Assembly: GCA_965262485.1 (NCBI GenBank)
Contig: OZ253540.1
Coordinates: forward strand, 3,606,080-3,670,079
From: Dehalococcoidia bacterium
GTDB lineage: Bacteria; Chloroflexota; Dehalococcoidia; Lucifugimonadales; UBA3495
Direction: 5' to 3'
Length of the DNA stretch: 64,000 nt
Shown here piece by piece: positions 6,034 to 44,623 of this stretch (position 1 is the stretch's first letter; every line of letters starts with the position of its first letter). The notes under the pieces are model-generated. The model was given only the letters and a program-made list of their open reading frames with translations, had not been told where the DNA came from and ran no database searches. A program made the position numbers and the translations under genes.

Positions 6034-6047
6034 ATCCCCCAGTCTAA

Positions 6048-6909
6048 GAGCCTGTCTACGATCTCTGAAATAGGTTAAGTTGAGGCTATTATTCAGGGGA
6101 GGGTAATCATGTCTCATTCCTATCCCAGCGACATCAGCCGGGAGCAATTCGCCCGTATTCTGCCGACGCTGGAGTCGGCCCGCCGCCGGACCAAGCCCCG
6201 CACCGTGGACTTGTATGACGTTTTCTGCGGTGTGCTATATCTCCTGAAAAGCGGGTGCCAGTGGCGAATGATACCCGCGGACTTCCCCGATTGGCGCACC
6301 TGCTACCAGTATTTCCGGCAATGGAGTGAGCGGCCCGACCCGGAGCAGGATTCCATTCTGGAACAAGTCCTAAAAAAAATCGGTTGGCGCGGCCCGACGC
6401 AGCAATGGGCGGAAAGAGCGGACCAGCTTCTGTATCGTGGACTCCCAGAGTGTCAAGAACACGGACAGCGCCGAGCACAAGGGCTATGACGCGGGCAAGA
6501 AGGTATCCGGAATCAAGCGACACATCGCGGTGGATACGCAAGGATTGCCCCATGCGATCCACATAACCACGGCCAACGTCACCGACCGGGCTGGGGCTTT
6601 GGCGATGTTTGACCGGCGCCGAGACGGCCTCAGTCAAGTGCAGAACGTGCTGGTGGACGGGGGTTACACCGGAAAGCCCTTTGCTGCTGCGGTGCAAAGC
6701 TTGTTGGGAGCCGCGGTGGAAGTGGTGAAACGCAGCGAACTGCACACCTTCGTGGTGCTGCCGAAGCGATGGGTGGTGGAGCGGTCTTTCGCCTGGCTGG
6801 AGAAGTGCCGCCGCCTCTGGAAGAACTGCGAAAGAAAGCTCAATACCAGCCTGCAAATGGTGGTGCTTGCCTTCATGGTGCTAATCCTCAAAAGATTGTA
6901 AACAGGCTC
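6048..6909 (+). mobile_element. IS5-family (IS427-like) element, copy 1, nested in the ISAs1 element
   Basis: IRs are GAGCCTGTCTACGATCT (6048-6064) and GAGCCTGTTTACAATCT (reverse complement of 6893-6909). TAA lies on both flanks (6045-6047, 6910-6912). It is inserted 14 bp upstream of the ISAs1 transposase start. Confidence 0.85.
6109..6901 (+). CDS. IS5-family transposase, two-frame OrfA/OrfB
   Basis: OrfA is 6109..6489 ('YLLKSGCQWRMIPADFPDWRTCYQYFRQW'). OrfB frame is 6437..6901 ('DSQSVKNTD...GYDAGKKVSGIKRHIAVDTQGLP...VERSFAWLEKCRRL'). An A8 run at 6372-6379 lies upstream of the overlap; one A fewer fuses the frames, as seen in copy 2. Confidence 0.85.
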
Positions 6910-7024
6910 TAAGGCTTCTTCTGAAAACTGAAAGACCCTGCCTTGAAATCCGGTGGTGGTTGCGATATAGCAACTAACCAGTGATCAGTCATATCGACAA
7001 CGACGAATTATCTCGCCCGCCACC

Positions 7025-11950: not shown

Positions 11951-12090
11951 TTGGCCACATTGATCGGCTCCCGCGCGACGGAAACCTTCCAGTCCTTCCG
12001 CCGCCGCGATTTCACCCTGGTTTGGGTTTCCGCCAACATCGCGATGGTAGGGCGGCAGATGGAGGTCATCGCCGTTTCCTGGCTCCCTTG
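11951..12090 (+). pseudogene. MFS transporter 5' fragment
   Basis: 'MATLIGSRATETFQSFRRRDFTLVWVSANIAMVGRQMEVIAVSWL' is a typical MFS N-terminus and first TM. Similarity ends about 12088, where the methyltransferase frame takes over. Confidence 0.45.
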
Positions 12091-14823
12091 GCCAGGGTAC
12101 TCCGGGATGATGTGCAAGCGGCGCTGGGGAGAGAGGGCAGTCCGCTTCGACTGTTGGCGAACGAGTGGAGCGGCCTCCTGTTCCCTGAGGGGGACGAGGC
12201 TCAGTTTGCGGATGCCTATGCACAGACGGTGACCTACGCACTGTTGCTGGCCCGGTTTGAAGGTGCAGAGAGCCTGATGCCTTTCATGGCCGTGGAAACC
12301 CTCCGGCGAGAGCACGGGCTCCTGGCTGAGGCCTTGCAGTTGCTGGAAGCCAACCCCGTCCGAGAAGAATTAAGTATGCCCATCGAGTTGCTTGAGCGCG
12401 CCATCGGGGCGGTGGACTCGACAAAGATAGGCCTCGGTGGGGACCCGTGGCTGTACTTCTACGAGCATTTTTTGGGAGCTTATGACCCGAAGCTCCGGAA
12501 GGACCGGGGCGTTTACTACACTCCTGTGGAAGTTGTTCGGGCGCAGGTGAGACTCGCCGGAGAGTTGCTGCACACCCGCTTCAAGAAACAGTTGGCGTTT
12601 GCCGACGACGATGTGGTGGTCCTCGACCCTGCAGTAGGAACAGGCACCTATCCGCTGGCGGTGTTGGAACATGCAGCGGAAGCCGTGCGAGAACGGCTAG
12701 GTCCGGGAGCCGTAACCGGGAAGCTGCGCAGCCTGGCTGACCGTCTGTACGCCTTCGAAATCCTAGTCGGGCCGTATTCCGTGGCGCACTTGCGTCTGTC
12801 TCAGAGACTCAGGGATGCCGGGGTTACCGACAAGACGGCGAACGTGTACCTAACGGATACGCTGGAGTCCCCCAATCAACAACTGGACTTTACAGCCAGC
12901 CTGCTACAGGCGCGGCTCACGGAGGAACACAAACGGGCACTGCAGGTCAAGAAAGACACGCGTGTCTTTGTATGCTTGGGAAATCCTCCGTACGATCGTG
13001 ATCTACGTGATCCAAACGAAAACGACGGCACCCGCCGTAAAGGCGGTTGGGTACGTTTTGGGGATGCCGGAGAGGCTACGCCAAAGCCAATCCTAGAAGA
13101 TTTCCTCGCGCCAGTGCGCGACGCCGGCGATGGGGTTCATCTGAAACCCATTTACAACGACTATGTGTACTTCTGGCGATGGGCCCTTTGGAAGGTGTTG
13201 GACTCCACCCATGACGCAGGCATCATTACCTTCATCACAGCATCGTCGTATCTACGGGGGCCTGGATTTGCTGGAATGCGAAGCAAGATGAGAGAGGTTT
13301 TTGATGAGTTGTGGATCATTGACCTTGAAGGGGACAGCCTTGGAACTCGGAAGACAGAGAATATTTTCGCTATACAGATCCCTGTAGCCATCGCTATCGG
13401 AGTTCGGAATGGTCCACCGAATCCGACGACGCCGGCGACGGTATGGAAGACGCGCCTCACAGGTCTAGAACAAGAGAAACTGATCGCCCTTGACCACACC
13501 AAGTCACTGGAAGACTATCAGTGGTCGCAGTGCCTGCAAGGGTGGAGAGATCCCTTCCAGCCAGTGGGAATCGGGAGGTATTTTGATTGGCCGGAGGTCA
13601 CGGATGTATTCCCGTGGCAGCACACTGGATCTGTGTTGTACCGGACCTGGCCCATTGGCGAAACTAGGGAGGTCCTCGCGGAACGGTGGCGTAATCTCGT
13701 AACCCGTCAGGCTAACGATAGACGAACCTCATTCAGGGAGACTCGCGATCGGAAAATCCATATTCAGTATGGGAGCCTCTTGGGCCACCAAGACCGCGAC
13801 CCGTCAATTGCTGTACTCAACGCTGACACTCCGGTACCTCCAATCGCGCCGTACTCATTCCGAACATTCGACCGTCATTGGGTGATCGCAGACTCCAGGG
13901 TCGGGGACTATATGCGTCCTGAACTGTGGCGGGCTCAGGGACCCCAGCAGGTTTATATGGTCGGAATGCTTGTCCAAGTGCTAGGTATAGGCCCCGCTGT
14001 GGTTGGGTGCACTGGAATTCCAGACCAACACCATTTCCGAGGATCGTTCGGAGACCGAGGAGTGATCCCGCTGTGGAGAGACGCTGATGCAACTCAGCCC
14101 AATGTCACTGATGGGCTGCTTGAGGCGATAGGTAGGGTGCACGGGACCGAGGTATCAGCCGAGAACCTCTTCTCCTACGCCTATGGGATTCTGGCCCAGC
14201 CAACGTACGTTAAGCGGTTCTGGGAGGAGCTTGAGCAACCACCGCCGCGCTTGCCAATCACCAAAGATAGCGGCCTGTTCACGCGAGTAGCCCGCCACGG
14301 GGCGCGTCTTTTATATCTTCACACTTATGGTGATCGATTTGGCGGACCCAACGACAATGGTACGGTGCCCCAAGGTCAGGTCCGATGCACCAAGGGTGTC
14401 TCACCAGAGAAATACCCGACCGGATTTTCTTACAACAACAAGACTGAGGTGCTAATCGTCGGCGATGGAGAGTTCGCGCCGGTAAAACCGGATGTGTGGA
14501 ACTATTCAGTCTCCGGGTTGCAGGTTGTGAAGTCGTGGCTGGACCGTCGCAAGCTGAAGCGGTCAGGACGACAGTCATCGCCCCTCGACAAGATCAGGCC
14601 AGAGCGATGGGATTTCACCGAGGAACTTCTTGAGTTGCTCTGGGTACTTGAAGCGACAATCAAACTCGAGCCTGAAGGGGCGGCTCTGTTTGCAGAGGTG
14701 TGTACCTTCGATGTGTTCTCGCGAGAGGAATTGCCCAGCCCGTCTGACGAGGAGCGGCAACCGCCTCGCAATATCGCATCAGGAGGGGAGCAACTTGGGC
14801 TCCTTGCTGAGGAAACGGATTGA
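12022..14823 (+). CDS. N6-adenine DNA methyltransferase with YeeA/type-ISP-like C-terminal region (probably 5'-truncated)
   Basis: Motif I 'VVVLDPAVGTGTYPL', motif IV 'CLGNPPYDR', upstream 'FADAYAQTVTYALLLARF' and C-terminal 'VWNYSVSGLQVVKSWLDRRK'. There is no convincing native start. Homologous sequence appears to begin at the junction with the MFS fragment. Confidence 0.8.
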   Translation: MGFRQHRDGRAADGGHRRFLAPLARVLRDDVQAALGREGSPLRLLANEWSGLLFPEGDEAQFADAYAQTVTYALLLARFEGAESLMPFMAVETLRREHGLLAEALQLLEANPVREELSMPIELLERAIGAVDSTKIGLGGDPWLYFYEHFLGAYDPKLRKDRGVYYTPVEVVRAQVRLAGELLHTRFKKQLAFADDDVVVLDPAVGTGTYPLAVLEHAAEAVRERLGPGAVTGKLRSLADRLYAFEILVGPYSVAHLRLSQRLRDAGVTDKTANVYLTDTLESPNQQLDFTASLLQARLTEEHKRALQVKKDTRVFVCLGNPPYDRDLRDPNENDGTRRKGGWVRFGDAGEATPKPILEDFLAPVRDAGDGVHLKPIYNDYVYFWRWALWKVLDSTHDAGIITFITASSYLRGPGFAGMRSKMREVFDELWIIDLEGDSLGTRKTENIFAIQIPVAIAIGVRNGPPNPTTPATVWKTRLTGLEQEKLIALDHTKSLEDYQWSQCLQGWRDPFQPVGIGRYFDWPEVTDVFPWQHTGSVLYRTWPIGETREVLAERWRNLVTRQANDRRTSFRETRDRKIHIQYGSLLGHQDRDPSIAVLNADTPVPPIAPYSFRTFDRHWVIADSRVGDYMRPELWRAQGPQQVYMVGMLVQVLGIGPAVVGCTGIPDQHHFRGSFGDRGVIPLWRDADATQPNVTDGLLEAIGRVHGTEVSAENLFSYAYGILAQPTYVKRFWEELEQPPPRLPITKDSGLFTRVARHGARLLYLHTYGDRFGGPNDNGTVPQGQVRCTKGVSPEKYPTGFSYNNKTEVLIVGDGEFAPVKPDVWNYSVSGLQVVKSWLDRRKLKRSGRQSSPLDKIRPERWDFTEELLELLWVLEATIKLEPEGAALFAEVCTFDVFSREELPSPSDEERQPPRNIASGGEQLGLLAEETD

Positions 14824-15196
14824 TGCTCAATCCGCGCCCTGAGCAGCTTCCATTTGGGGATAGTAGGGCCATGGCAATGGAGTGTTCCGCGTCAAGTATT
14901 CTTGCCGATTTGTCGCCGATTCCAAGCTCAGGCAACACGTTCCCAGATACTAAAATCCGGATTGTCTTTACGAGTGTAAACGGCAGCGGAGATGGAACGG
15001 ACGGTGGCGGAAAACGGGCCTAGCCAGCGTTGAAGGTGCGTATTCGCAATGTTTGCGCGGTTACAGACGGCTCGGGCGAGCGATCAGATTCGGTGGTGGG
15101 CAAGAGAAGACATCCGGGAGGCAGCAGCCGTGTCCAGTTAGGAGAGGATCTCGGAAACGTCAACTACAGCAGGTCACTAATCGGATAAAAGGGACG

Positions 15197-15811
15197 ATGT
15201 GGACCGCGATAGTGATTGCGGTGGTGTATGCAATGGCATTAGCCACGCCCACGGTCTGGGGGAGTCTGGCGCCTCAATGGCTGCAGGTCATGCTGGAGCA
15301 AAGGGATCGCTTCCTCACGCTGGGTGCAGCCATTTTTGGGATCTTATCGATAGTGGAACCGAGCCATGTCATGCCGAAAGCGTACTTGGCGACGGTAATT
15401 GCCGGCGGCCTCACTGCATATGCCGCAGTGCTCAACTCATTCAATCCAATCACCTTGGGAGTGGCAGGAGGAATCTTGCTGGCGACGTTCCCCGTGTTTT
15501 TGCTCTTAACAACTACTTGGCGAATGCCTAGGCGATGGGAGTGGGCAGGCTGGCCCGCCATAGCCTCAATTGTCACCCTGGTCGCGGTAGTAGCCACAAT
15601 CAATACACCATTAGCGGTGCTGATAGTCGCTATTCTCGGAGAGGAGATAGCGTTTGCGGCCTTGGCGTCGGCGGTGATAATCGCGGTGTTCGTACTTTTT
15701 GTTTCATGCAGTACGTTTGCGGTGAAAGGTGTGGGAAGAGCACAAAAAATATTTACGGAGCGATTTTTACACAATCAAGCTTCGGGTAGGAGACGGGGAA
15801 GACCCGCGTAA
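15197..15811 (+). CDS. multi-pass membrane protein, unknown function
   Basis: From ATG 15197, 'MWTAIVIAVVYAMALATP...' has 5-6 hydrophobic helices. The track ORF starts earlier, at 15053. Confidence 0.6.
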   Translation: MWTAIVIAVVYAMALATPTVWGSLAPQWLQVMLEQRDRFLTLGAAIFGILSIVEPSHVMPKAYLATVIAGGLTAYAAVLNSFNPITLGVAGGILLATFPVFLLLTTTWRMPRRWEWAGWPAIASIVTLVAVVATINTPLAVLIVAILGEEIAFAALASAVIIAVFVLFVSCSTFAVKGVGRAQKIFTERFLHNQASGRRRGRPA

Positions 15812-15928
15812 TAGCTTGGTCGATAGAGCGAAGTCCTTGGTGAACAATCGTGGGCGCCAGATCCGCCTACCATTCGATAGTGCAAATTTGCGCCGAGGCT
15901 ATATTCAGCCCAGAAACGGAATAATCGA

Positions 15929-16906
15929 TTGAAGATTGCAGGCGTTGACTTCCCGGAACCCCTGCTGAACGCCATGCGTGACGGCAGGCTGGTGATTTTC
16001 GCCGGCGCCGGTGTGTCCATGGGCCCGCCGGCCGGACTGCCCGGCTTCCGGCAGTTGGCCCAGCAAGTAGCCGAAGGAACTGGGCAGTCCATCGGCACAT
16101 CGGAAACCGAGGACCGCTTCCTGGGGCGGCTAGAAGACGGTGGCATTGATGTCCATCGCCGCGCTGCTCGATTTTTACAGCAGCACGATCCTGAACCCAC
16201 GGAACTGCACCGTAACTTGCTTCGGCTATACACGAAGACCGAAGATGTCCGAATCGTCACCACCAACTTTGACCCGCTGTTTGAGCAGGCCATCGGCAAC
16301 CTGTTCAATCCTGTACCGCGGGTATTTCAGGCTCCGGCGCTACCTTTGGGCAGTCGTTTTAATGGGATAGTGCACGTTCACGGACTGTTGCGCGAACCGG
16401 CAGAAATGGTGCTCACTCACCGAGATTTCGGCAAGGCTTACCTTACCGAGGCCGATGGCTGGGCGCGTCGTTTTCTGGTTGACCTCTTCGCTAACCAAAC
16501 GGTGCTGTTCGTAGGCTACAGCCACAGCGACATGATAATGACCTACCTTACCCCGTCGTTGCCGCCGGATGATGGACAACGGCGTTTCGCCCTGATCGGC
16601 GACCGGAGTGATGAACCGGAGAGATGGCTCGGACTGGGCATCCAACCCGTTATATTTCACCAAGTGGCCGATAATGACTTTAACGGTCTGGACGCGGCGG
16701 TAACCGGCTTGGCGAGCCACGTACGGATGGGCATTCTGGACTGGCAACGCGAAATCACCGAAATTGCCAACGGACCGCCGCCCATTGACGAGGAGGGTTC
16801 CAGCATCGTCGAACACGCTCTTTCCGATCCTGCGCTGACGCGTTTCTTACCAGGGCAGCCGATTCACCAGAATGGATTGATTGGCTTGACCGGAGCGACC
16901 AACTGA
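15929..16906 (+). CDS. SIR2_2-domain protein (defence-type NADase-like)
   Basis: 'RLVIFAGAGVSMGPPAGLPGFRQLA', 'VTTNFDPLFEQA', 'IVHVHG' and 'VLFVGYSHSDM' are the hallmarks of the SIR2-like defence family. It has a TTG start. The last ~20 codons look non-native (see finding). Confidence 0.8.
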   Translation: MKIAGVDFPEPLLNAMRDGRLVIFAGAGVSMGPPAGLPGFRQLAQQVAEGTGQSIGTSETEDRFLGRLEDGGIDVHRRAARFLQQHDPEPTELHRNLLRLYTKTEDVRIVTTNFDPLFEQAIGNLFNPVPRVFQAPALPLGSRFNGIVHVHGLLREPAEMVLTHRDFGKAYLTEADGWARRFLVDLFANQTVLFVGYSHSDMIMTYLTPSLPPDDGQRRFALIGDRSDEPERWLGLGIQPVIFHQVADNDFNGLDAAVTGLASHVRMGILDWQREITEIANGPPPIDEEGSSIVEHALSDPALTRFLPGQPIHQNGLIGLTGATN

Positions 16907-16911
16907 CCGCA

Positions 16912-19416
16912 TTGTTCGCCAACGGCGACTTCACTGAGAAAGACGGGATACTGTCCTCCTGGTTGGCAATACGGTTCGCTATTAAGAACGCCGACGTCCT
17001 GTTTCGGGCAATAGAGCGACATGGCGCAACGGTAAATCCACGGCTTTGGAGCCTGCTCGCTTGGCAGTTGGGAGAACCCGACGACGGATCGTTGGATGCG
17101 GAAACCCTTTCCAGGTGGGTCCATTTTCTGTTGAGTGCAACTCCGCCTGATGATAACGATTACGTCCTGTGCAATATGGCGGAAAAGTGTGCGCGCCTGG
17201 GTATCCTGCACGAATTGCTACAGCTATACGACGCGTTGACATCAAATCGCCAACAGACGCAACCTCGGTCAGGCTGGAACCAATCCCATCTGATACATTA
17301 CTGGGAAGAAACCCTGTGGCGGAAGTGCCTGGCGCCCAATTTGTCCGAAATAGCCGAATCGTTACTTGAACGGACCGTGAGGAGGCTGGAAGAGCGTCAT
17401 TTTGCGCTGCGAGCCTGGCATCAAGCGGATGATGCTCGGGATCCGGACAGCTTCCACCGGTCGGCTATCGAACCTCATCCGCAAGACCGGTTTCCTCATG
17501 ACGCGGATATGCTGATTAACATTGCGCGGGAGTGCGTGCAATGGCTGGTCATCAACAGAAATGACGCTGCCAGGCTGTGGTCTGAACGCTTCGCCCGTTC
17601 TCAGGCACCGCTACTGCGCCGTCTGGCAGTCCATGCCCTCTCAGTGCGAACCGACCCGTCGGCCGACGATAAAATCGCCTGGCTACTTGAGCATTGCGAT
17701 GTGAATGAAACCTGCGCACAGCACGAGATATACCGAGCAGTGGCCTCCGTATACCCACACGCGGGACCAGAGCAAAGGCAGGCATTGATTGCCGCCGTAC
17801 TGGCCTACCGCTGGCCGTGGGAAGACGATCCGGATGATGAACGTTACTCGGCTCACCATCATTACGATTGGCTCCAATGGCTAACCGAGGCCGACCCTGA
17901 CTGCATACTGGTGCGGCAAGCGCTAGACCTCATCCGGGCACGGCATCCTGAATTTGTGCCTCAAGAACATCCCGACCTCACTCACTGGATCGGCGATGTA
18001 TATGAAGTGGTCGGGAAGCCCAGTCCATGGAGTGTGGCGGAAATGCTGGATCAGTCACCCGCCGAATGGCTGCCCCAAGCGTTGGAACAACAACCTTCCG
18101 AATATACCGCCCACCCCCGCGATCAGATAATCAACTATGTGGCGGAAGCGACGAAGCAGAATCCAGACTGGGGGCTTGAGCTGGCAGACCAAATGACACA
18201 GAGTGCGGAATGGGATACTCACCTTTGGCGTGGGGTGATAAATGGTTGGTGTTCGGGAGGTCCGGATGAGGCCACCCTGGCTGGAGCAATTCGAATTCTG
18301 TCCGCGGACGCACTCCATGTCAAACACGTAGATGAGATCACGGATGCCCTGACATATCTAATCGGGAACAACGAGGTGGAGATGAATCCGGCCACGTTGG
18401 CCTTGGCGAACCAGACAGCGAGAAGCCTTTGGCAGCACATTGCGGTCAACGACCGTGGGATGGACTCGGATTGGATGGAGCGGGCCAGCAACCACCCTGC
18501 GGGAAGGCTCGCGCATTTCTGGATGCGAAGCATCGCCATCTGGAGAAAGAATCAGGAGCCGAAGCCCACCATGGTCAGCGGCGAGTATCGAGAAGCACTA
18601 TCGGAGATGGTGGCAGACCATGAGCTGCGGGGCACACTGGCGCGGGCAACGCTGATGTCCGAACTTTCCTTTTTGGCGTTTGTTGACGAAGAGTGGACTC
18701 GGCACAACCTGATACCGTTGCTGGCGCCCGAACACGACGACTTCGCGTCCGCTTGGGATGGCCTGGTCCATGGACGTCTGCACCCGATGACAGTAGAGCT
18801 ATTGCGAGAACCTTTCCTCACCGCGGTAGAGAACATCTTGCCCACTATGGAAGGTTCAACCAGGGAAGGATTCATCAGAAAATACACTCAGATGCTCATT
18901 TTCTCAGCGACCGACGCCAACGACACATGGATTACGAAGCTGTTCAAGCACGCTGACGATGAAGACAGACGCTTGTTCACGATGGAAATCAGTCGAGCCC
19001 TTCAGTTGGTGAACGAGTCCCACCAGCAAGAATGGTGGGATACCTGGCTCAGGGACTACTGGGAAAATCGTTTGGTCGGCGTGCCCACTCCTCTCAGCGA
19101 CACCGAGATAGTTTTGATGACCGAATGGGCTACGAACCTACCCGGGCTGTTCCCAGACGCCGTTGACTTGGCAACCCAAATGCCTTCGGTATCTGGCATA
19201 CTCTGGTTAGTACTATATAGAATCGAAGATAGCGGATTGGCCGAACGACACCCCATCGAACTGGCCAATCTGTTGATCCACATAGCGCAATCTGATTCCG
19301 AACCTTGGATCGGGCTCAGGATTAAAGGCATCGTCGACCAGCTATTGGAAAGTGACCTTCCCACAGACTTAAAACGTGGGTTACATGAACTTGCAGTCAA
19401 GCACAACCTACGATAG
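16912..19416 (+). CDS. 834-aa alpha-helical partner, probable C-terminal part of a DSR2-like SIR2 protein
   Basis: There is no ATG; the track start is TTG, 5 nt after the SIR2 stop. Its frame is open upstream to 16789 and reads protein-like 'FLTRAADSPEWIDWLDRSDQLTALF'. It is Leu/Trp/Ala-rich and helical-looking, with no catalytic motif seen. Confidence 0.65.
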   Translation: MFANGDFTEKDGILSSWLAIRFAIKNADVLFRAIERHGATVNPRLWSLLAWQLGEPDDGSLDAETLSRWVHFLLSATPPDDNDYVLCNMAEKCARLGILHELLQLYDALTSNRQQTQPRSGWNQSHLIHYWEETLWRKCLAPNLSEIAESLLERTVRRLEERHFALRAWHQADDARDPDSFHRSAIEPHPQDRFPHDADMLINIARECVQWLVINRNDAARLWSERFARSQAPLLRRLAVHALSVRTDPSADDKIAWLLEHCDVNETCAQHEIYRAVASVYPHAGPEQRQALIAAVLAYRWPWEDDPDDERYSAHHHYDWLQWLTEADPDCILVRQALDLIRARHPEFVPQEHPDLTHWIGDVYEVVGKPSPWSVAEMLDQSPAEWLPQALEQQPSEYTAHPRDQIINYVAEATKQNPDWGLELADQMTQSAEWDTHLWRGVINGWCSGGPDEATLAGAIRILSADALHVKHVDEITDALTYLIGNNEVEMNPATLALANQTARSLWQHIAVNDRGMDSDWMERASNHPAGRLAHFWMRSIAIWRKNQEPKPTMVSGEYREALSEMVADHELRGTLARATLMSELSFLAFVDEEWTRHNLIPLLAPEHDDFASAWDGLVHGRLHPMTVELLREPFLTAVENILPTMEGSTREGFIRKYTQMLIFSATDANDTWITKLFKHADDEDRRLFTMEISRALQLVNESHQQEWWDTWLRDYWENRLVGVPTPLSDTEIVLMTEWATNLPGLFPDAVDLATQMPSVSGILWLVLYRIEDSGLAERHPIELANLLIHIAQSDSEPWIGLRIKGIVDQLLESDLPTDLKRGLHELAVKHNLR

Positions 19417-19697
19417 CAAGCCAAGCCGGACCATAAACCGGCCGCGAATGCCATTGAGCAATCGACGGCTTTTGCAACAATGCTTAGTCTTTTTGCAGCT
19501 CTCGTAAAGCCCAATCCCGAGTAGCGAAGTTTTCTCAACGTGGCGCGCTGTCGCAGGTATTCTGTAGGTACAGGACACTAAACTGCGATCCGAAAGGTTG
19601 GTCTTCATAGGCGAAGACGGAACCAGCATCTTGAATCTAACAAATTCTAACCAGGGGAGGACCATCTCGTGAAGTTGACAAGCTGAATCTGCAGACC

Positions 19698-21464
19698 ATG
19701 TTTGCGAAGCAGATCTGGTACGAGGTCCCACGCTTTCAGAGGCAATACGTTTGGGACGAGGATGAGCAATGGGAGCCGCTGTGGGCCGATGTGCAGAACA
19801 CTGCGGAGCGTTCCTTGGCCATGCGCAACGGCGGAACTGTGGGGATGCAACAGCAGACGCACTTCCTGGGTGCAGTCGTATTGCAGCAGACACAGAACAT
19901 GACTGGCCAGCTTGAATCCCGGTTGGTGGTGGATGGGCAGCAGCGTCTGACCACGCTCCAATTGCTGGTCGATGCCATCCAAGAGGTCTATCAGCAACAG
20001 GGACTGCAAACCGCGGCGGAACGTTTAGCGGACATGGTGCTGAATTACGAACGATACCGAGGAGGCGACCCCGACCGGGCCTTCAAGGTCTGGCCTACTG
20101 CCGCAGACCAGGAAGCTTTCAGGCATGCGATGAGCAATGAACTGCCTAGCGATGAATTCAAGGATTCAAACATCGTACGAGCCCACGAATTTTTCAAAAC
20201 ACAGATTGCTCACTGGCTCATAAAAGACCCCGAGGAACGGGAGACCCGGGCCGACGCTTTGGAACGTACGGTGAATAACCTGCTCGAGTTGGTGGTCATT
20301 GACCTTGAAATGGGCGATGACCCGCACGTCATTTTCGAGACGCTGAATGCTCGCGGGACTCCTCTTCTGGAGTCGGACCTGATCAAAAACATGGTCATGC
20401 ACGAGGCCGTGAGTGCGGGCATCGCTCTGGATTCGGAAGCGGGCAAGAATTCGTGGAGGTTCGACGACGGTTGGTGGAGCCAGGATGTTCAGCAAGGCCG
20501 GTTGGTGCGGCCTCGTATCGACGTATTTCTGAACTACTGGCTGGTAATGCGCTCGCAAGATGAAGTGGCCGCCAAAGAGATGTTCTCGACCTTCCGCCGC
20601 AACTATCCTAACTGGTGTCCCTCTGGGTCAATTGCAGGACTCGCAGACGAGATTCATGCCGCAGCGGAGCATTACCGAACGCTGGAAACCAAGAACCGCA
20701 CAGAAATGGAACAGTTCCTCTATCGCCGTGAAGTGATGCAAGCGGGAGTGTTGACGCCGGTGTTGATGTGGTTGCTGACCGCCGAAACTCCTCAACAACA
20801 ATTAGACAAGGTATTGCGAGCTCTCGAAAGATTCCTAGTCCGACGGATGATACTCCGTATGTCGACCAACGGTTACAACCTACTGTTCATCGGAATGCTG
20901 GAACCGTTGGAGGAAGCAGGCGCACAGCGCGCCGGCGACACCGTGTCTGCATATCTCAAGGACCAGAAAGCCCCTGCGAGGCTCTGGCCGAATGACCACG
21001 CGTTGCGGGAAGCGTTCACCTCGTGGCCTCTCTACAAGTTCCTTACCCGAGGGCGGCTGCGCTTGGTGCTGGAAGGAATCGAGAGCGACCTCAGGACCAG
21101 AATGGCCGAGAGTCAAACCGTAGAACGGACATTAACCATCGAGCACATCATGCCGCAACAGTGGCGGGAGAATTGGAAACTCCTATCGGATATCGAGGAT
21201 GTCGACAAGGCAAAAATCGACCGCGACAACCTAATTCATTCGATGGGCAACCTGACTCTGGTAAACGGTCGGTTGAACTCCAGCCTTTCTAATGCTTCGT
21301 GGGAGGATAAGCGGGCCGCCTTGGATAAACACGGTATGTTTTTCCTCAATAAAAATCTGGTCAGCGAGGCCCCTGATGTATGGAATGAGACTACCATCGA
21401 ACAGCGCGCCCTAGCGCTATGCGAATCAGCCGCAAGAGTCTGGCCTTCGAGTAAGATGTTCTAA
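19698..21464 (+). CDS. DUF262/DUF1524 protein (GmrSD-like type IV restriction enzyme)
   Basis: N-terminal 'VPRFQRQYVWDEDEQWEPLWADV' (DUF262). C-terminal 'LTIEHIMPQQW' and 'HSMGNLTLVNGRLNSSLSN' (His-Me/DUF1524). Confidence 0.85.
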   Translation: MFAKQIWYEVPRFQRQYVWDEDEQWEPLWADVQNTAERSLAMRNGGTVGMQQQTHFLGAVVLQQTQNMTGQLESRLVVDGQQRLTTLQLLVDAIQEVYQQQGLQTAAERLADMVLNYERYRGGDPDRAFKVWPTAADQEAFRHAMSNELPSDEFKDSNIVRAHEFFKTQIAHWLIKDPEERETRADALERTVNNLLELVVIDLEMGDDPHVIFETLNARGTPLLESDLIKNMVMHEAVSAGIALDSEAGKNSWRFDDGWWSQDVQQGRLVRPRIDVFLNYWLVMRSQDEVAAKEMFSTFRRNYPNWCPSGSIAGLADEIHAAAEHYRTLETKNRTEMEQFLYRREVMQAGVLTPVLMWLLTAETPQQQLDKVLRALERFLVRRMILRMSTNGYNLLFIGMLEPLEEAGAQRAGDTVSAYLKDQKAPARLWPNDHALREAFTSWPLYKFLTRGRLRLVLEGIESDLRTRMAESQTVERTLTIEHIMPQQWRENWKLLSDIEDVDKAKIDRDNLIHSMGNLTLVNGRLNSSLSNASWEDKRAALDKHGMFFLNKNLVSEAPDVWNETTIEQRALALCESAARVWPSSKMF

Positions 21465-22323
21465 GAGCCTGTCTACGATCTTTTCAGGATTAGCACCGTG
21501 AAGGCAAGCACCACCATTTGCAGGCTGGTATTGAGCTTCCTTTCACAGTTCTTCCAGAGTCGGCGGCACTTTTCCAGCCAGGCGAAAGACCGCTCCACCA
21601 CCCATCGCTTCGGCAGCACCACGAAGGTGTGCAGTTCGTTGCGTTTCACCACTTCCACCGAGGCTCCCAACAAGCTTTGCACCGCAGCGGCAAAGGGCTT
21701 CCCGGTGTAACCCCCGTCCACCAGCACCTTCTGCACCTGACTGAGGCCATCCCGGTGCTGGTCAAACATCGCCAAACCCAGCCCGGTCGGTAACGTCGGC
21801 GGTAGTCACGTGTATCCCATGGGGCAATCCTTGCGTGTCCACCGCGATGTGTCGCTTGATTCCGGACACCTTCTTGCCCGCGTCATAGCCCTTGTGCTCG
21901 GCGGTGTCCGTGTTCTTCACGCTCTGGGAGTCCACGATGCAGAAGCTGGTCTGCTCTTTCCGTCCATTGCTGCGTCGGGCCGCGCCAACCGATTTTTTTA
22001 GGACTTGCTCCAGAATGGAATCCTGACCCGGGCCAGGCCGCTCGCTCCATTGCCGGAAATACTGGTAGCAAGTGCGCCAATTGGGGAAGTCCGCGGGTAT
22101 CATTCGCCACTGGCACCCGCTTTTCAAGAGGTACAGCACGCCGCAGAAAACGTCATACAAGTCCACGGTGCGGGGCTTGGTCCGGCGTCGGGCCGACTCC
22201 AACGTTGGCAGGATACGGTCAAATTGCTCCCGGCTGATGTCGCTGGGATAGGAATGAGACATGATTACCCCTCCCCTGGTGATAGTCTCAACTTAACCTA
22301 TTTCAGAGATCGTAGACAGGTTC
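21465..22323 (-). mobile_element. IS5-family (IS427-like) element, copy 2, inverted relative to copy 1
   Basis: IRs are GAGCCTGTCTACGATCT (21465-21481) and GAACCTGTCTACGATCT (reverse complement of 22307-22323). It is >90% similar to copy 1 by eye. The flanks are TAA (21462-21464, also the stop codon of the DUF262 gene) and TTA (22324-22326). Confidence 0.85.
21473..22262 (-). pseudogene. IS5-family transposase, OrfA-OrfB fused by an A7 run then broken by a 2-nt deletion
   Basis: ORF 21762..22262 reads OrfA straight into OrfB ('...EQVLKKSVGAARRSNG...DSQSVKNTD...'). The run is T7 on the plus strand (21993-21999) versus A8 in copy 1. The frame is lost at about 21776/21777 ('gctgggtttggcg' versus copy 1 'gctggggctttggcg'). 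Confidence 0.8.
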
Positions 22324-22325
22324 TT

Positions 22326-22607
22326 ACGCTAACTCCCAATCCATCAGGGCATTTTGCCGTGGAGATTCACGACTGGGAGGAGATGATAGCCAACCTGGAT
22401 GCGCTGGAAGTGCCGTATTCTCCACCCTCTGTCCGCGCCTACAGCGGCGGGCACTCCACATACATCCAAGACCCCGACGGGAACATGATCGAGCTGGTGC
22501 AGCACCCCTTGGGGCTGCGAAACTCAAAGAGCGAAACCGTGGAAGTACCGCATGACCCGAAGGGAATGAGGTGGGCGCAACAGCCCGACTTCGGGCCTAC
22601 TGGCTGA
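22326..22607 (+). pseudogene. VOC/glyoxalase-family protein, C-terminal fragment truncated by IS5 copy 2
   Basis: 'GHFAVEIHDWEEMIANLDALEVPY...STYIQDPDGNMIELVQHP' starts directly at the IS boundary. The N-terminal half is absent from the window. Confidence 0.6.
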
Positions 22608-25670: not shown

Positions 25671-27234
25671 TTGGAGGGTCAAAATACGCGCCTTTCCGAG
25701 GATAGCAAACGCGTCATGCAAAAGATTGAGGCGTTCCGTCAACAGCAATCTGATGACAATCGAATTGTTTTGGTATTTGCAACCACGGAACCAATTTCAG
25801 AACAAGACCGCCGAGCTTTGGAGGATATAAAAATAATTGGACGGGAGCGCATTTCCGACAAATTTGATGTCGAAGAAGTTTCTCTAATGACCATTTGGGA
25901 GGCCATAGTAGAAGAACAATCGCAGAGCCTGTCTGTCAACGTCAAAGGTCAGTTTGTTGATCAGGACGCCGGCTTGCTTGTAGGCATGGTTTCCCTGATT
26001 GACTTGTTCAAATTCCTCGTTGAATATAAAAACAAGGCAGGTAACCTCGACCAGCTTTATGAAAAGAACGTAAGACAGTTTTTGGGAAGTCGGCGGAAGG
26101 TTAACAAAGGTATCGTATCCACCTTGAACGATAATCCTCAATTGTTTGGGTTGTACAATAATGGCATCACTATTGTGGCGTCGAATTATGTGAAATCGGA
26201 TTCTGATAGCACAGTCGAGATACGCGATCCATACGTTGTGAACGGTTGCCAAACTACCCGCTCTATCTGGCAGGTCCTCGATGGTAAGCTCAATTCAGAC
26301 GGCAGTGCCCGTTCGGATGCCCTTAATGAATGGAGAGAAGGAGTCGAACGAGGTGGGGTAATTGCCAAGATTATCAAAAGCGGCGAAGCCGATATACTAG
26401 ATATTACGCGATTCACGAATTCTCAGAATGCAGTCCGAGCGCAAGATTTTATTGCGCTAGAATCTGGCTTCAGTGATTGGGCCTCTAGTATGGCAAACAC
26501 CTACAAGATATTCTTGGAGACTCAACGAGGCGGCATAGATGCCCGTAAGGCGCGCGAAAAGCAGCATCCAGAAATGGGGCAATTTGATGACTATGTCAAT
26601 GCTTTCGACTTGATAAAGGTCTATGGTGCTGGATGGCTGGCTGCCCTTGGCATGGCATTTGGCAAGAATGCTCCCTTCCTCCCGAAAGGTTCAATTTACG
26701 AACGGATCGTATCTCAGCAGGATGTTGAGATAAGGTTTGGCGCGCGCGATTTGTTATGCAGCGTACAAGATCAAATGCGCTGCGGACTCAATCGGTTTTG
26801 GACGTATTGCCGCCCGTCAACGTCCCAGCAGGGGATCGTCGAGGTTTCTGTTTTACTACGTGGTGATAGAGATGCTCCGCGACGTTATTAAGAGAACCCG
26901 GCAAGTCGCTGACGTACCCGAAAATTTGTTAACAGACGCAGTGCATAAACTCGCAGTTCCTGAGTCCGAAGACGCGTTCGGCGCGCTCTGCGATGCAGCG
27001 GTTGAAGCCGTTGACGAATACCTCACGGAAGGTAGCGAAAACTGTGCTTATGACGAACCAGTCTTCAGCGGCAACCTGTCCAACTTTTTGAAATCTGAAC
27101 AATTGGGCAGAAACGATCAGTTTGCGCCGCTGATGAGGTCATTGTTGGCCACTCACAATACACTGTTCGGGCGTGGTGCCCGCGGTAGTATTTCACCTAG
27201 GGAGCAAGTCGCGCAAGTTATAAACCCGAGCTAG
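25671..27234 (+). pseudogene. AIPR (abortive-infection phage resistance) family protein, N-terminally short and frameshifted
   Basis: 'NVRQFLGSRRKVNKGIVSTLNDNPQLFGLYNNGITIVA...VVNGCQTTRSI' is the AIPR signature. ORF 25671..26891 and ORF 26737..27234 overlap in different frames (shift about 26740-26760). The track start is TTG. The region is AT-rich. Confidence 0.75.
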
Positions 27235-27920
27235 GTAGTTTGGTGCAAGTCAAAAATCCTGCTGCGGACGTTGAACACAAACCCCGGCAGCACTGGCTCC
27301 CCGTCGATGGTCTCCGGGTCGTGCAGCACTTCGGGTTCGGCGTCGGGCCGGTAGATGTGCACCTGTTGGTTGTACGGGTCAATCAGCCAACCCAGCAGCG
27401 CGCCGTTGGCGATGTACAGTTCCATCTTGCGCTGCAACGGGGGCAAACGGTCGGCGCCGGACATTATTTCGGCGACAAAGGCCGGGCAGACGGTGATTGC
27501 GCCCCCCACGGAAACTGGCGGCATTGACGCTACCTGCTCCGGAGACAGCCACAAAGCATCTGGCCGTATCCGGGAGCCGTCGGGCAGGCGCATATTGGCG
27601 TTAGCGCCGTGGGCTTCCCCGCCGTACTCTTCTTCCCAGATTTCCAACGAGCTTGTCAGCCGGGTTTCAGCTTTCGTGCCATCTCGATTTACCATCGGAT
27701 TGATTACCAACTCCCCATCGCTGGTCAGCTCCAGGTTAAACCCACGGCCTTCGTTGGCTTTATCCAGGTCCACAAACCACTCATCTATCTCGGAATCGGT
27801 TAGTTTTCCGGCCACGGATTCCAGGACGGGCCTGATGTTGACGACCAACGTGCGCGGCAGGTCAAAATCGTCAGTGTCGGTAACGCCAACGGTATCTTTG
27901 ATAGTGGCATTGGTTGTCAT
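27231..27920 (-). CDS. Uma2-family (DUF820) endonuclease, paralog 1
   Basis: 'PDALWLSPEQV...VCPAFVAEIMSGADRLPPLQRKMELYIANGALLGWLIDPYNQQVHIYRP'. Confidence 0.85.
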   Translation of the reverse strand: MTTNATIKDTVGVTDTDDFDLPRTLVVNIRPVLESVAGKLTDSEIDEWFVDLDKANEGRGFNLELTSDGELVINPMVNRDGTKAETRLTSSLEIWEEEYGGEAHGANANMRLPDGSRIRPDALWLSPEQVASMPPVSVGGAITVCPAFVAEIMSGADRLPPLQRKMELYIANGALLGWLIDPYNQQVHIYRPDAEPEVLHDPETIDGEPVLPGFVFNVRSRIFDLHQTT

Positions 27921-27925
27921 AGCAT

Positions 27926-28630
27926 CTATCCTTCGAGAACGGGCTCATGCAAGTCAAAAATCCGCCGCCGCACCTCAAACATAAACCCCGGCAGCACCGC
28001 ACCGCCGTTGATCGTCTCCGGGTTATCCAGTACCTCAGGCGAGGCGTCGGGGCGGTAGACGTGAACCTGTTGGTTGTACGGGTCAATCAGCCAACCCAGC
28101 AGCGCGCCGTTGGCGATGTACAGTTCCATCTTGCGCTGCAGCGGCGGCAAACGGTCGGTGCCGGACATTATTTCGGCGACAAAGGCCGGGCAGACGGTGA
28201 TTGCCTTGCCAGGGGTAATGCCGCCCATTTCCGTTATCTGTGCCGGCGACAACCACGCCGCATCCGGCTGGGTTCGAGTGCCATCGGGCAAACGGACAAT
28301 TCCATCGGAGCCGGAGACGCGTCCGCCGTGCCCGTCGTTCCAGGCGAATAGCCTTCCGATCATTTCCACTTCCGCAAAGTTGCCGTCCATATTCACCATG
28401 GGATTGATTACCAGTTCTCCTTTAGCGGTCAGCTCCAGATAGAAGCCACGGCCCTCGTTGGCTTTGGCGAGACCGACGATCCATTGGTCGATTTCGTCAT
28501 CGCTAAGTTTGCCGGCAACCGAGTCCAGGATGGACCGGATGTTGATAGTGAGAGGCAATGGCACATCGCTCCAGTCAGTAATGTCGTGGTCATCCGTGGC
28601 TGGAGCGTGGGGTTTGGGTTGAGCAACCAT
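27926..28630 (-). CDS. Uma2-family (DUF820) endonuclease, paralog 2
   Basis: Same architecture; 'VCPAFVAEIMSGTDRLPPLQRKMELYIANGALLGWLIDPYNQQVHVYRP'. Confidence 0.85.
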   Translation of the reverse strand: MVAQPKPHAPATDDHDITDWSDVPLPLTINIRSILDSVAGKLSDDEIDQWIVGLAKANEGRGFYLELTAKGELVINPMVNMDGNFAEVEMIGRLFAWNDGHGGRVSGSDGIVRLPDGTRTQPDAAWLSPAQITEMGGITPGKAITVCPAFVAEIMSGTDRLPPLQRKMELYIANGALLGWLIDPYNQQVHVYRPDASPEVLDNPETINGGAVLPGFMFEVRRRIFDLHEPVLEG

Positions 28631-28656
28631 CTCGTCTATCCCTCCTGGCCAGGTGG

Positions 28657-29334
28657 TTAATGCAAGTCAAAAATGCGGCTGCGGACATTGAACACGAACC
28701 CGGGCAGCACGGGCTCCCCGTCGATAGTCTCCGGGTCGTGCAGCACTTCGGGTTCGGCGCCGGGCCGGTAGATATGCACCCGGCGCTGGAAGGGGTCGAT
28801 TAGCCAACCGAGCAGTGCACCGGAGGTAATCCACTCCTCCATTTTGGCCTGCTGGTCTTCAAGCGCGTTAGACCGGGAACGAATTTCTACTATGAAGCGG
28901 GGGGCAAATGGCGCACCGTAGTCGCGCTGGCCAGCCGGGGGCAATTCGGCCAACTGCTCTGGTGCAATCCAGCCAGCATCGGGAGCGCGGCGTCCCGGCC
29001 AAGGCATTCGCACTAGCGCGTTTCCGGTTACTACCAACCCAGCAGGGCCCGTGTTCGCCCAAAACTGCAAATCAAAATAAACGCTACCCGCACGCTGCAT
29101 ACCGTCCATGCTCTCCGACGCCATTGCCAATAATCTCCCGGCCTCATCAATCTCAAACTGGTAGCCCAAATCCTTGTTGTCATGAGTGAACTCAATGAAC
29201 CAGGCATCCAGCGCGTCATCGTCAGGCAGCAGGGCCAGCACCGAACGGATGTCCAGCGCAAAGCTCTCAGGGAGCATATCGTCGTCAGCATCGGCGGTTA
29301 CCGCCAGCGGAGCGGTGATCGGCTGTGTACTCAT
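28657..29334 (-). CDS. Uma2-family (DUF820) endonuclease, paralog 3
   Basis: 'APRFIVEIRSRSNALEDQQAKMEEWITSGALLGWLIDPFQRRVHIYRP'. Its C-terminus is identical to paralog 1. Confidence 0.85.
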   Translation of the reverse strand: MSTQPITAPLAVTADADDDMLPESFALDIRSVLALLPDDDALDAWFIEFTHDNKDLGYQFEIDEAGRLLAMASESMDGMQRAGSVYFDLQFWANTGPAGLVVTGNALVRMPWPGRRAPDAGWIAPEQLAELPPAGQRDYGAPFAPRFIVEIRSRSNALEDQQAKMEEWITSGALLGWLIDPFQRRVHIYRPGAEPEVLHDPETIDGEPVLPGFVFNVRSRIFDLH

Positions 29335-29345
29335 TTTGCTCTACC

Positions 29346-30134: not shown

Positions 30135-30295
30135 CCTCATCCCGAGCCGGTCGAAGGCCCACCTGTCATTGCGAGGAGCGTAGCGACGTGGCAATCTCGT
30201 TGAGGTTGAACACACGCCGGCAAACCACCATTGCTACGGCGACGAGATTGCCACGCTGCGCTCGCAATGACAGATTAAAGTGGGTACGCATGAGG
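30135..30295. repeat. modular palindromic intergenic element, family A copy 1
   Basis: An outer stem gtcattgcga...tcgcaatgac encloses a core (30187-30255) bounded by ggcaatctcgt / acgagattgcc. Related copies sit at 44314-44497 and 46651-46831. Confidence 0.8.
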
Positions 30296-44549: not shown

Positions 44550-44623
44550 ACCGGCGTGGTGTAGTGGTAGCGCATCGGTCTCCAAAACCGAAGGTGTGGG
44601 TTCGATTCCTTCCGCCGGTGCCA
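44550..44623 (+). tRNA. tRNA-Trp (CCA)
   Basis: Acceptor ACCGGCG/CGCCGGT. Anticodon arm TCGGT-CTCCAAA-ACCGA. T arm GTGGG-TTCGATT-CCTTC (one mismatch). Discriminator G and an encoded CCA. Confidence 0.85.

What the first reader, a model, noticed from the sequence alone, without database searches (positions are those of the whole stretch)
15929..19416. SIR2 gene and the 834-aa ORF look like one ~1160-aa DSR2-like protein split by a single-nucleotide deletion
The SIR2_2-type ORF ends with an unconvincing tail ('LPGQPIHQNGLIGLTGATN*'). The next ORF starts 5 nt later at a TTG. Its frame is open upstream to 16789 and reads natively ('FLTRAADSPEWIDWLDRSDQLTALF...') across the last ~60 nt of the SIR2 ORF. 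Adding 1 nt near 16847-16849 gives a continuous '...ALSDPALTRFLTRAADSPEWIDWL...'. Established: DSR2 is an N-terminal SIR2 NADase fused to a long helical-repeat sensor. The alternative is a genuine two-gene SIR2 + sensor system or programmed frameshifting. The C-terminal 834 aa has no motif I can assign, so its sensor specificity would be new either way. A multi-pass membrane protein gene (15197..15811) lies 117 nt upstream on the same strand.
Basis: partly seen in the sequence, partly recalled or inferred. Interest (0 to 1): 0.68.

Follow-up and report, generated by a model that had tools for sequence, protein, structure and literature searches.

The report
Frameshifted DSR1 anti-phage sirtuin gene
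The two neighbouring ORFs are one known anti-phage gene (DSR1, an NAD-destroying SIR2 enzyme fused to a helical phage sensor) broken by the loss of a single base, so this is an ordinary disrupted gene or an assembly error, not a new system.

Summary
ORF 15929..16906 (SIR2_2) and ORF 16912..19416 (834 aa) are the two halves of one 1162-codon gene that lacks one base after position 16848.

Four independent relatives, 92-96% identical in DNA, read TTCTTCATC where the window reads TTCTT-ACC. Each of them carries an intact ORF of 3489 nt including the stop codon. The lost base is the third base of the Phe307 codon, and Phe307 is invariant in 53 intact homologues. The top 120 of 2830 homologues are nearly all single proteins of about 1160-1180 aa.

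The family assignment needs correcting. This is DSR1 (SIR2_2 + DUF4020; the PADLOC and NCBIfam Dsr1 profiles match both halves), not DSR2. The Dsr2 profile does not match, and DSR2 structures superpose poorly (TM about 0.2). The C-terminal part is therefore a known sensor type; for E. coli Dsr1 the reported trigger is the phage major capsid protein.

The repaired gene shows no relaxed selection, so the deletion is either very recent or a consensus error. Reads are needed to decide. I lean slightly towards a real lesion, because the surrounding 27-kb island holds about seven frameshifts and a truncated restriction gene, while ten large housekeeping genes elsewhere in the window are intact.

A functional two-gene split or programmed frameshifting is unlikely. 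Interest is low.

The parts
15929..16848 (+). DSR1 gene, 5' part in its original frame: codons 1-306 plus the first two bases (TT) of codon Phe307. It encodes the complete SIR2 NADase domain.
   Evidence: Pfam SIR2_2, E 6.7e-22, residues 108-238. PADLOC Dsr1 profile positions 6-300. NCBIfam Dsr1 positions 7-312. Same TTG/MKIAGV start as the intact relatives.
16265..16381 (+). Segment holding the conserved SIR2 active-site motifs: TTNFD (N113 at 16265-16267, D115) and VHVHG (H151 at 16379-16381). All are retained.
   Evidence: T112, N113, F114 and H151 are invariant and D115 is at least 90% conserved in the 55-sequence alignment that includes the window. Their catalytic role rests on established knowledge of SIR2 NADases, not on a test here.
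16847..16849 (+). Site of the 1-nt deletion. The window reads TT|A where relatives read TTC A; the missing base is the third position of the Phe307 codon. The next codon also carries a substitution (ACC in the window, ATC in relatives).
   Evidence: blastn alignments to L002, L003 and L009. Phe307 is invariant in 53 intact homologues. Every listed member of the 90% cluster that spans the junction reads RFFIRAADSPEW.
16850..16906 (+). Out-of-frame tail of ORF1 (PGQPIHQNGLIGLTGATN, then TGA). It is not native protein sequence.
   Evidence: In the other frame the same bases read TRAADSPEWIDWLDRSDQL, which matches the homologues.
16849..19416 (+). DSR1 gene, 3' part (codons 308-1162 plus stop), shifted by one base relative to the 5' part. 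It encodes the all-alpha solenoid/TPR-like sensor region. The annotated ORF2 (834 aa, 16912..19416) is its subset from the first available start codon.
   Evidence: PADLOC Dsr1 profile positions 571-1218. NCBIfam Dsr1 positions 586-1243. The AlphaFold model of the 90%-identical intact relative is all-helical from residue ~252 on (residues ~252-297 probably the end of the SIR2 domain, ~300 on the sensor), with pLDDT mostly above 85 from residue ~300 on. ORF2 is identical to database protein P0124.
18922..19191 (+). Pfam DUF4020 match inside the sensor region (ORF2 residues 671-760).
   Evidence: PF13212, E 4.1e-08, 33.6 bits against a cutoff of 22.7.

Best explanation
Window 15929..19416 is a single gene of the DSR1 family (defense-associated sirtuin 1). 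It encodes an N-terminal SIR2 NADase effector (residues 1 to ~300) fused to an ~860-residue alpha-solenoid/TPR-like sensor containing DUF4020. The gene has lost one base in the Phe307 codon (after 16848), at the start of the first sensor helix. I consider the one-gene reading about 0.93 likely in total. Within it, my preferred version is that the deletion is a real and very recent inactivating mutation inside a decaying defence/mobile-element island. As encoded, the locus would give a free SIR2 domain with a 19-residue nonsense tail and, at best, an effector-less sensor fragment started from a poor TTG, so it would not be a working defence protein. The mechanism of the intact protein is inferred from the family and was not tested here. 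The sensor binds a phage structural protein (the major capsid protein for E. coli Dsr1), this releases the SIR2 NADase, NAD+ falls and phage replication stops. For Bacillus-expressed DSR1 the NAD+ drop is transient and the cells are not killed.
For: One gene. Both ORFs match consecutive parts of the same Dsr1 profiles, and the repaired protein scores E 3.8e-61 against Dsr1. There are 2830 homologues, and the top 120 are nearly all single proteins of 1160-1180 aa with PF13289 + PF13212. Intact genes of 3489 nt including the stop occur in L001/L002, L003 and L009 at 92-96% DNA identity, and the single frame-breaking gap lies at 16848/16849. Phe307 is invariant.

Real lesion rather than error. 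(i) About seven frameshifts lie in window 1-27 kb: JAB ~3458, IS ~6372, ATPase ~8327, DSR1 16848, IS ~21777, alpha/beta hydrolase ~22900 and, less certainly, AIPR ~26850. Ten large housekeeping genes in 27-64 kb match Pfam profiles end to end. (ii) The same island has structural damage that no consensus error can produce. The Type IIG/ISP restriction gene lacks its first 189 codons. An IS sits in a VOC-like gene, and the two IS copies are only 93% identical to each other. (iii) The deletion is not in a homopolymer of three or more bases. (iv) The same gene is broken independently in other assemblies, once by a 4-nt deletion (L008).

Mechanism. DSR1 is a single-gene system that depletes NAD+ (bioRxiv 10.1101/2021.12.14.472415). 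The Dsr1 sensor is homologous to the Avs7 sensor and is triggered by the major capsid protein (PMC12803255).
Against: The repaired gene shows no decay. dN/dS against intact relatives is 0.27-0.33, no higher than the 0.47 between two intact genes. It deviates at 12 of 354 conserved columns, against 13 and 14 for intact close relatives. The window branch carries 36 amino-acid changes against 32 on the sister branch. There is no stop codon in 855 downstream codons. All of this fits an artefact equally well.

Every small lesion I found in the island is an indel and none is a nonsense substitution. Those that could be compared with relatives are 1-2-nt events, mostly deletions. This is the error profile of long-read consensus sequences. 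The relatives come from long-read metagenome assemblies at 4-16x coverage (contig names), and the window's ORF2 is on record from a 4.08-Mb contig. No reads could be examined.
Confidence: 0.52

Rival explanations
1. Assembly or consensus error. The organism carries an intact 1162-aa DSR1 gene, and the missing base is a 1-nt deletion introduced when the long-read consensus was built, perhaps in a low-coverage or strain-variable island.
For: The repaired gene looks fully functional: dN/dS is 0.27-0.33, conserved columns and catalytic residues are kept, and there are no stops. All small lesions in the island are indels with no nonsense mutations. Close relatives come from long-read metagenome assemblies at 4-16x coverage, and about a third of the listed members of the 90% cluster are fragments.
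Against: Ten large genes (~19 kb of coding sequence) in 27-64 kb have no frameshift, whereas about seven lie in 1-27 kb. If errors were uniform, five or more falling only in the first 42% of the window has a probability of about 0.01 (my arithmetic). The site is not a homopolymer. The island also has truncations and IS damage that are certainly real.
Confidence: 0.4
2. Genuine two-gene system. The SIR2 effector and the sensor are made as separate polypeptides that assemble non-covalently and still defend.
For: The break falls at the domain boundary: the SIR2 domain ends near residue 297 and the break is in the first sensor helix, 301-310. Both halves are otherwise undamaged. The sensor module is reported to combine with many different effectors (PMC12803255).
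Against: No homologue shows this arrangement. Every listed member of the 90% cluster that spans the junction reads straight through it, and the top 120 homologues are fused. The first possible start for ORF2 is a TTG 21 codons downstream of the break. The only GGAG upstream of it lies 17 nt away, and the first ATG codon is ORF2 residue 88. ORF1 ends in a 19-residue out-of-frame tail.
Confidence: 0.04
3. Programmed -1 ribosomal frameshifting (or transcriptional slippage) restores the full-length protein at a regulated low level.
For: A -1 slip of tRNA-Phe on U_UUC at 16843-16846 would give ...RFLTRAAD.... A modest hairpin can be drawn downstream (-24.8 kcal/mol over 100 nt, no shuffle control run).
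Against: There is no canonical X_XXY_YYZ heptamer anywhere in the 16789-16906 overlap. Relatives at 92-96% identity encode the protein in one frame, so no conserved recoding signal exists. The slip product would put Leu at the invariant Phe307.
Confidence: 0.02

Closest known systems
DSR1 (defense-associated sirtuin 1; Gao et al. 2020; NCBIfam NF041818; PADLOC Dsr1; Pfam SIR2_2 + DUF4020)
   Same: Same architecture and length class: a single polypeptide of about 1160-1270 aa with an N-terminal SIR2_2 domain and a long helical C-terminal region containing DUF4020. The Dsr1 profiles match both ends. The SIR2 motifs TTNFD and HxHG are kept. The gene lies in a defence island next to a Type IIG/ISP restriction gene and a GmrSD gene.
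   Different: It is a distant branch. The intact relative scores 244 bits against NF041818, whose equivalog cutoff is 1400 bits. Repaired-protein residues ~330-480 are not covered by the profiles. It comes from Dehalococcoidia (Chloroflexota) MAGs rather than Bacillus or E. coli. In this window the gene is frameshifted.
DSR2 (Bacillus subtilis defense-associated sirtuin 2; PDB 8z18, 8wyd, 8wya and others)
   Same: Same working logic: an N-terminal SIR2 NADase plus an alpha-solenoid sensor that binds a phage structural protein. DSR2 chains are the best Foldseek hits in the PDB for the model of the intact relative (E 2e-07).
   Different: There is no sequence-family relation. The window proteins give no PADLOC Dsr2 hit at the thresholds used (E <= 0.01 for the two ORFs, E <= 1 for the repaired protein); for P0001 the hit is E 0.032, over the SIR2 part only. 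The global superposition is poor: TM 0.17-0.22, rmsd ~34 A, 12% identity, no better than importins and other HEAT/ARM solenoids. The DSR2 trigger is the tail tube protein, whereas the reported Dsr1 trigger is the major capsid protein (PMC12803255).
Avs7 (STAND NTPase with a TPR sensor)
   Same: According to PMC12803255 the Dsr1 sensor is homologous to the Avs7 sensor (bilobed TPR array) and both respond to the phage major capsid protein.
   Different: DSR1 has no STAND NTPase module. I did not test the homology to Avs7 on this sequence, because no Avs7 profile was available in the libraries.
ThsA (Thoeris) and KomC SIR2 NADases
   Same: These are the closest solved structures to the SIR2 domain by sequence: 8wc0 ThsA, E 9.5e-08; 8zsf KomC, E 9.4e-06.
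   Different: Only the ~200-residue SIR2 core is shared. ThsA is regulated by a SLOG/STALD domain and a signalling molecule, not by a fused solenoid sensor.

Membership tests
DSR1 | N-terminal SIR2 (SIR2_2-type) domain with the NADase motifs | tested here: met
   PF13289, E 6.7e-22. N113 and H151 are invariant and D115 is at least 90% conserved, and the window keeps all three.
DSR1 | Long helical C-terminal region with DUF4020, matched by the Dsr1 profiles | tested here: met
   PF13212, E 4.1e-08. PADLOC Dsr1 positions 571-1218 of 1248. NCBIfam Dsr1 positions 586-1243 of 1263. The model is an all-alpha solenoid.
DSR1 | Single polypeptide (one-gene system) | tested here: not met
   As written in the window the gene is two ORFs because of a 1-nt deletion. 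The locus is therefore a disrupted member, or a mis-assembled one.
DSR1 | Score above NCBI's equivalog cutoff for NF041818 (1400 bits) | tested here: not met
   The intact relative P0001 scores 243.9 bits; the window halves score 156.5 and 106.3 bits. This is a distant member of the wider family, not an equivalog of the characterised protein.
DSR1 | Phage-triggered NAD+ depletion and defence; capsid protein as trigger | not testable with these tools
   Known only from the literature for Bacillus-expressed and E. coli DSR1.
DSR2 | Match to the DSR2 sequence family | tested here: not met
   No PADLOC Dsr2 hit for the two ORFs at E <= 0.01 or for the repaired protein at E <= 1. P0001 gives E 0.032 over 80 SIR2 residues only.
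DSR2 | Structural correspondence of the MID/CTD solenoid to the DSR2 structures | tested here: inconclusive
   DSR2 chains rank first in Foldseek (E 2e-07), but with TM 0.17-0.22 and rmsd ~34 A, similar to generic HEAT/ARM proteins. The architecture is shared; the specific fold relation is unproven.
Programmed -1 frameshift gene | Slippery heptamer plus conservation of the two-frame arrangement in relatives | tested here: not met
   No X_XXY_YYZ heptamer in the overlap. Relatives are in one frame.

The most novel reading that the evidence does not exclude
The split is real and tolerated or selected. Free SIR2 and sensor polypeptides (or a low-level -1 slip at U_UUC_UUA) would give a naturally 'uncoupled' or down-tuned DSR1. 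More broadly, this DSR1 lineage may be recurrently switched off in Dehalococcoidia populations: independent breaks occur in L008, P0123, P0126 and P0128. That would point to a measurable fitness cost of carrying an NADase effector.
Probability: 0.05. Interest if true: 0.45.

Novelty: new member of a known kind. Interest (0 to 1): 0.12.

Why it matters
It matters mainly for annotation. The two ORFs should be merged and labelled as one frameshifted DSR1-family gene (pseudogene or sequencing error), not as a SIR2 + unknown-sensor pair or as DSR2. The locus adds one more example of DSR1-like genes being abundant in Dehalococcoidia, where one genome carries three paralogues. It also shows defence islands carrying many broken genes. 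It opens no new mechanistic question. The only moderately interesting thread is the recurrent, independent disruption of this gene in related assemblies, which could be used to study the cost of NADase defence genes if read data show that the breaks are real.

Tried and rejected
1. Exact-product look-ups for the window's ORF1, ORF2 and GmrSD, and for P0124 and P0103, found nothing on record. The source contig and its reads or annotation could therefore not be retrieved. ORF2 does exist in the protein collection as P0124, from NCBI and ENA, on a 4,075,112-bp contig.

2. Two metagenome scans, one for the frameshifted junction and one for an intact junction with the window's ACC codon, each found 0 hits. 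There is no independent confirmation of either allele.

3. A full-text search for 'DUF4020' found no paper.

4. A PDB sequence search matched only the SIR2 core (ThsA, KomC). No solved DSR1 was found.

5. The membrane-protein ORF 15197..15811 was considered as a system partner and rejected. It sits in a ~930-nt segment absent from L003 and is not found by tblastn in any related locus. It has no Pfam, PADLOC or NCBIfam hit.

6. GmrSD was considered as an obligate partner and rejected. It follows DSR1 only in the closest relatives L001/L002, not in L003-L007 or L009.

7. An old pseudogene was rejected on dN/dS and the conservation counts.

8. DSR2 membership was rejected.
Full report
OBSERVATION

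ORF1 is 15929..16906 (+, TTG start, 325 aa) and ORF2 is 16912..19416 (+, TTG start, 834 aa). ORF1 ends in '...ALSDPALTRFLPGQPIHQNGLIGLTGATN*'. The ORF2 frame is open back to 16789 and reads '...FLTRAADSPEWIDWLDRSDQLTALFANGDFTEK'. Inserting one base after 16848 makes a continuous ORF of 1162 codons.

WHAT IT IS

Pfam finds SIR2_2 in ORF1 (E 6.7e-22) and DUF4020 in ORF2 (E 4.1e-08). PADLOC places ORF1 on positions 6-300 and ORF2 on positions 571-1218 of the same Dsr1 profiles. NCBIfam NF041818, 'anti-phage defense-associated sirtuin Dsr1', does the same: positions 7-312 and 586-1243 of 1263. The repaired protein scores E 3.8e-61 against Dsr1 and gives no Dsr2 hit even at E <= 1.

A search of the 5.8-billion-protein collection with the repaired protein found 2830 homologues. 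The top 120 are almost all single proteins of 1160-1180 aa carrying PF13289 + PF13212. The best hit, P0001, has 1162 aa, 90% identity and 100% coverage.

LOCATING THE LESION

P0001 is encoded on two ENA metagenome contigs, L001 and L002. Window 15878..21465 aligns to L002 at 95.0% identity over 5591 nt. Inside the gene there is exactly one uncompensated gap: window ACGCGTTTCTT-ACCAGGGCA against ACGCGTTTCTTCATCAGGGCA. The same holds against L003, a Dehalococcoidia MAG, and against L009, the closest relative at 96%.

With one base restored, the window gene is 3489 nt including the stop. That equals the relatives' length, so the codon alignment needs no gaps. Phe307 is invariant in 53 intact homologues. 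The lost base is therefore the third position of the Phe307 codon (TTY). Every listed member of the 90% cluster that spans the junction reads RFFIRAADSPEW.

REAL MUTATION OR ARTEFACT

The repaired gene shows no sign of decay:
- dN/dS is 0.33 against L002 and 0.27 against L003, compared with 0.47 between those two intact genes. The part downstream of the break (0.29-0.37) is not relaxed.
- At 354 columns that are at least 85% conserved, the window deviates 12 times. One of these is my arbitrary Leu307. The intact close relatives deviate 13 and 14 times.
- Amino-acid changes polarised with outgroups number 36 on the window branch and 32 on the sister branch.
- N113 and H151 are invariant, D115 is at least 90% conserved, and the window keeps all three.

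The deletion is thus either very recent or not real.

Three points favour a real lesion. First, the window contains further frameshifted genes, all within 1-27 kb:
- a JAB-domain gene (~3458);
- two IS copies (~6372 at an A8 run, and ~21777, where 2 nt are missing);
- an ATPase gene (~8327);
- an alpha/beta hydrolase (~22900; Abhydrolase_1 profile positions 1-47 and 61-238 lie in different frames);
- probably an AIPR gene (~26850).

In contrast, ten large genes in 27-64 kb match their Pfam profiles end to end. Second, the island carries damage that cannot be a consensus error. The Type IIG/ISP restriction gene 12022..14823 lacks the first 189 codons present in L003. An IS interrupts a VOC-like gene, and the two IS copies are only 93% identical to each other. 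Third, the DSR1 site is not a homopolymer.

Three points favour an artefact. Every small lesion I found is an indel and none is a nonsense mutation; those comparable with relatives are 1-2-nt events, mostly deletions. The relatives come from long-read assemblies at 4-16x coverage. About a third of the listed members of the 90% cluster are fragments. One of those breaks, however, is a 4-nt deletion in L008, which looks like a true mutation.

I put a real recent lesion at about 0.52 and an assembly error at about 0.40. Only reads can decide between them.

OTHER READINGS

A functional two-gene split is unlikely (0.04). No relative has that arrangement. The first start codon for ORF2 is a TTG 21 codons past the break, with no well-spaced Shine-Dalgarno sequence. 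ORF1 also ends in 19 out-of-frame residues.

Programmed -1 frameshifting is also unlikely (0.02). The overlap contains no X_XXY_YYZ heptamer, relatives at 92-96% identity are in one frame, and a slip at U_UUC would replace the invariant Phe307.

HOW THE INTACT PROTEIN WORKS (inferred from the family)

DSR1 is a single-gene system. During infection NAD+ falls, transiently in the tested case, and phage phi29 is blocked without culture collapse (bioRxiv 10.1101/2021.12.14.472415). A 2026 preprint reports that the Dsr1 sensor is homologous to the Avs7 TPR sensor. [quoted passage not shown]

An AlphaFold model of the intact 90%-identical relative has mean pLDDT 81.8 (the sensor mostly above 85, the SIR2 core lower). 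It shows a Rossmann-like N-terminal domain, and the chain is helical from about residue 252 to the C-terminus, the part from about residue 300 being an uninterrupted helical solenoid. The frameshift falls in the first solenoid helix, residues 301-310.

COMPARISON WITH DSR2

Foldseek against the PDB ranks DSR2 chains first (E 2e-07). The fit is poor, however: TM 0.17-0.22, rmsd ~34 A and 12% identity, about the same as importins and CAND1. A PDB sequence search matches only the SIR2 core, to ThsA and KomC. The protein therefore works like DSR2 in outline (SIR2 plus solenoid sensor) but belongs to the DSR1 family. Within that family it is a distant member: 244 bits against an equivalog cutoff of 1400.

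CONTEXT

The closest relatives are Dehalococcoidia MAGs. In L003, L008 and L009 the gene sits directly downstream of an intact Type ISP/IIG restriction gene of 1100-1107 aa. In L003 and L009 this gene is preceded by an ATPase gene and a second gene with a weak TrmB hit; L008 shows one 734-aa gene with ATPase and weak TrmB hits there. The window holds a degraded version of this island.

The membrane-protein ORF 15197..15811 lies in a ~930-nt segment absent from L003 and is found in no related locus. GmrSD follows DSR1 only in L001/L002. Neither gene is a conserved partner.

VERDICT

The 'one gene split by a 1-nt deletion' reading is correct. The family label should be DSR1, not DSR2, and the sensor is a known type. 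This is an ordinary disrupted or mis-assembled member of a known defence family, and its interest is low.

Noticed in passing
window 12022..14823 (+): The Type IIG/ISP restriction-methyltransferase gene (Type_ISP_C, E 2.5e-69; PADLOC REase_MTase_IIG, E 4.7e-291) lacks the first ~189 codons, which in L003 6492..9815 (1107 aa) hold a PD-(D/E)xK-like motif (my reading of the sequence, not a profile match). The window sequence upstream (~11800-12000) instead resembles the C-terminus of a Uma2-like endonuclease (by eye, not tested). The gene may be an orphan methyltransferase or a pseudogene.
   Followed up: partly
window ~3458, ~6372, ~8327, ~21777, ~22900, ~26850: Six further frameshift-type splits, all in the first 27 kb: a JAB-domain gene, IS copy 1 at an A8 run, an ATPase_2-like gene, IS copy 2 (2 nt missing), an alpha/beta hydrolase, and probably an AIPR abortive-infection gene. 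Ten large housekeeping genes in 27-64 kb are full length.
   Followed up: partly
window 6043..6914 (+) and 21461..22326 (-): Two copies of the same IS (its relative in L003 has a single 263-aa ORF). They are only 93% identical to each other, and each has its own frame break. The second copy interrupts a VOC/glyoxalase-like gene, whose remnant is at 22356..22607.
   Followed up: partly
window 14851..15779, including ORF 15197..15811 (+): A ~930-nt segment between the restriction gene and DSR1 that is absent from L003. It carries a 204-aa multi-pass membrane ORF with no Pfam, PADLOC or NCBIfam hit and no counterpart in any related locus. No terminal repeats were found.
   Followed up: partly
L008 5720..5780 (ena:ERZ25071132 ctg809729_6x_l); proteins P0123, P0126, P0128, P0129/P0131: The same DSR1 lineage (at least 90% identical) is broken independently in other assemblies. 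L008 has a 4-nt deletion at codon ~575. P0128 breaks near the same codon. P0123 and P0126 lack the N-terminus. This is either recurrent loss or assembly noise.
   Followed up: partly
L003 3022..13489; L009 3015..13489; L008 1..7485: A recurring island order in Dehalococcoidia relatives: in L003 and L009, an ATPase_2/AAA_16 gene (426 aa), a 641-735-aa gene (weak TrmB hit on record for L009), the Type ISP/IIG restriction gene (1100-1107 aa), then DSR1. L008 has one 734-aa gene with ATPase and weak TrmB hits directly upstream of the restriction gene. The window holds a degraded version of this island.
   Followed up: no
L005, L006, L007 (OZ220464.1, Dehalococcoidia MAG chromosome): One 3.27-Mb genome carries three separate full-length DSR1-like paralogues, each 48-49% identical to the window protein.
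   Followed up: no
window 19698..21464 (+): An intact GmrSD-type (DUF262/DUF1524) Type IV restriction gene. It is 98.2% identical in DNA to its counterpart in L002, clearly less diverged than the adjacent DSR1 gene (~93%).
   Followed up: no
window 27231..30044 (-): Four tandem ORFs of ~225-234 aa on the minus strand that share 87-89% identical DNA segments of 160-260 nt. This looks like a paralogous gene array of unknown function.
   Followed up: no
window 44318..44458 / 46665..46809; 46496..46588 / 50610..50703; 30185..30254 / 44348..44417: Short dispersed repeats of 70-145 nt (86-96% identical) in or near intergenic regions close to tRNA-Trp (44550..44623). They may be MITE-like elements or regulatory repeats.
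   Followed up: no
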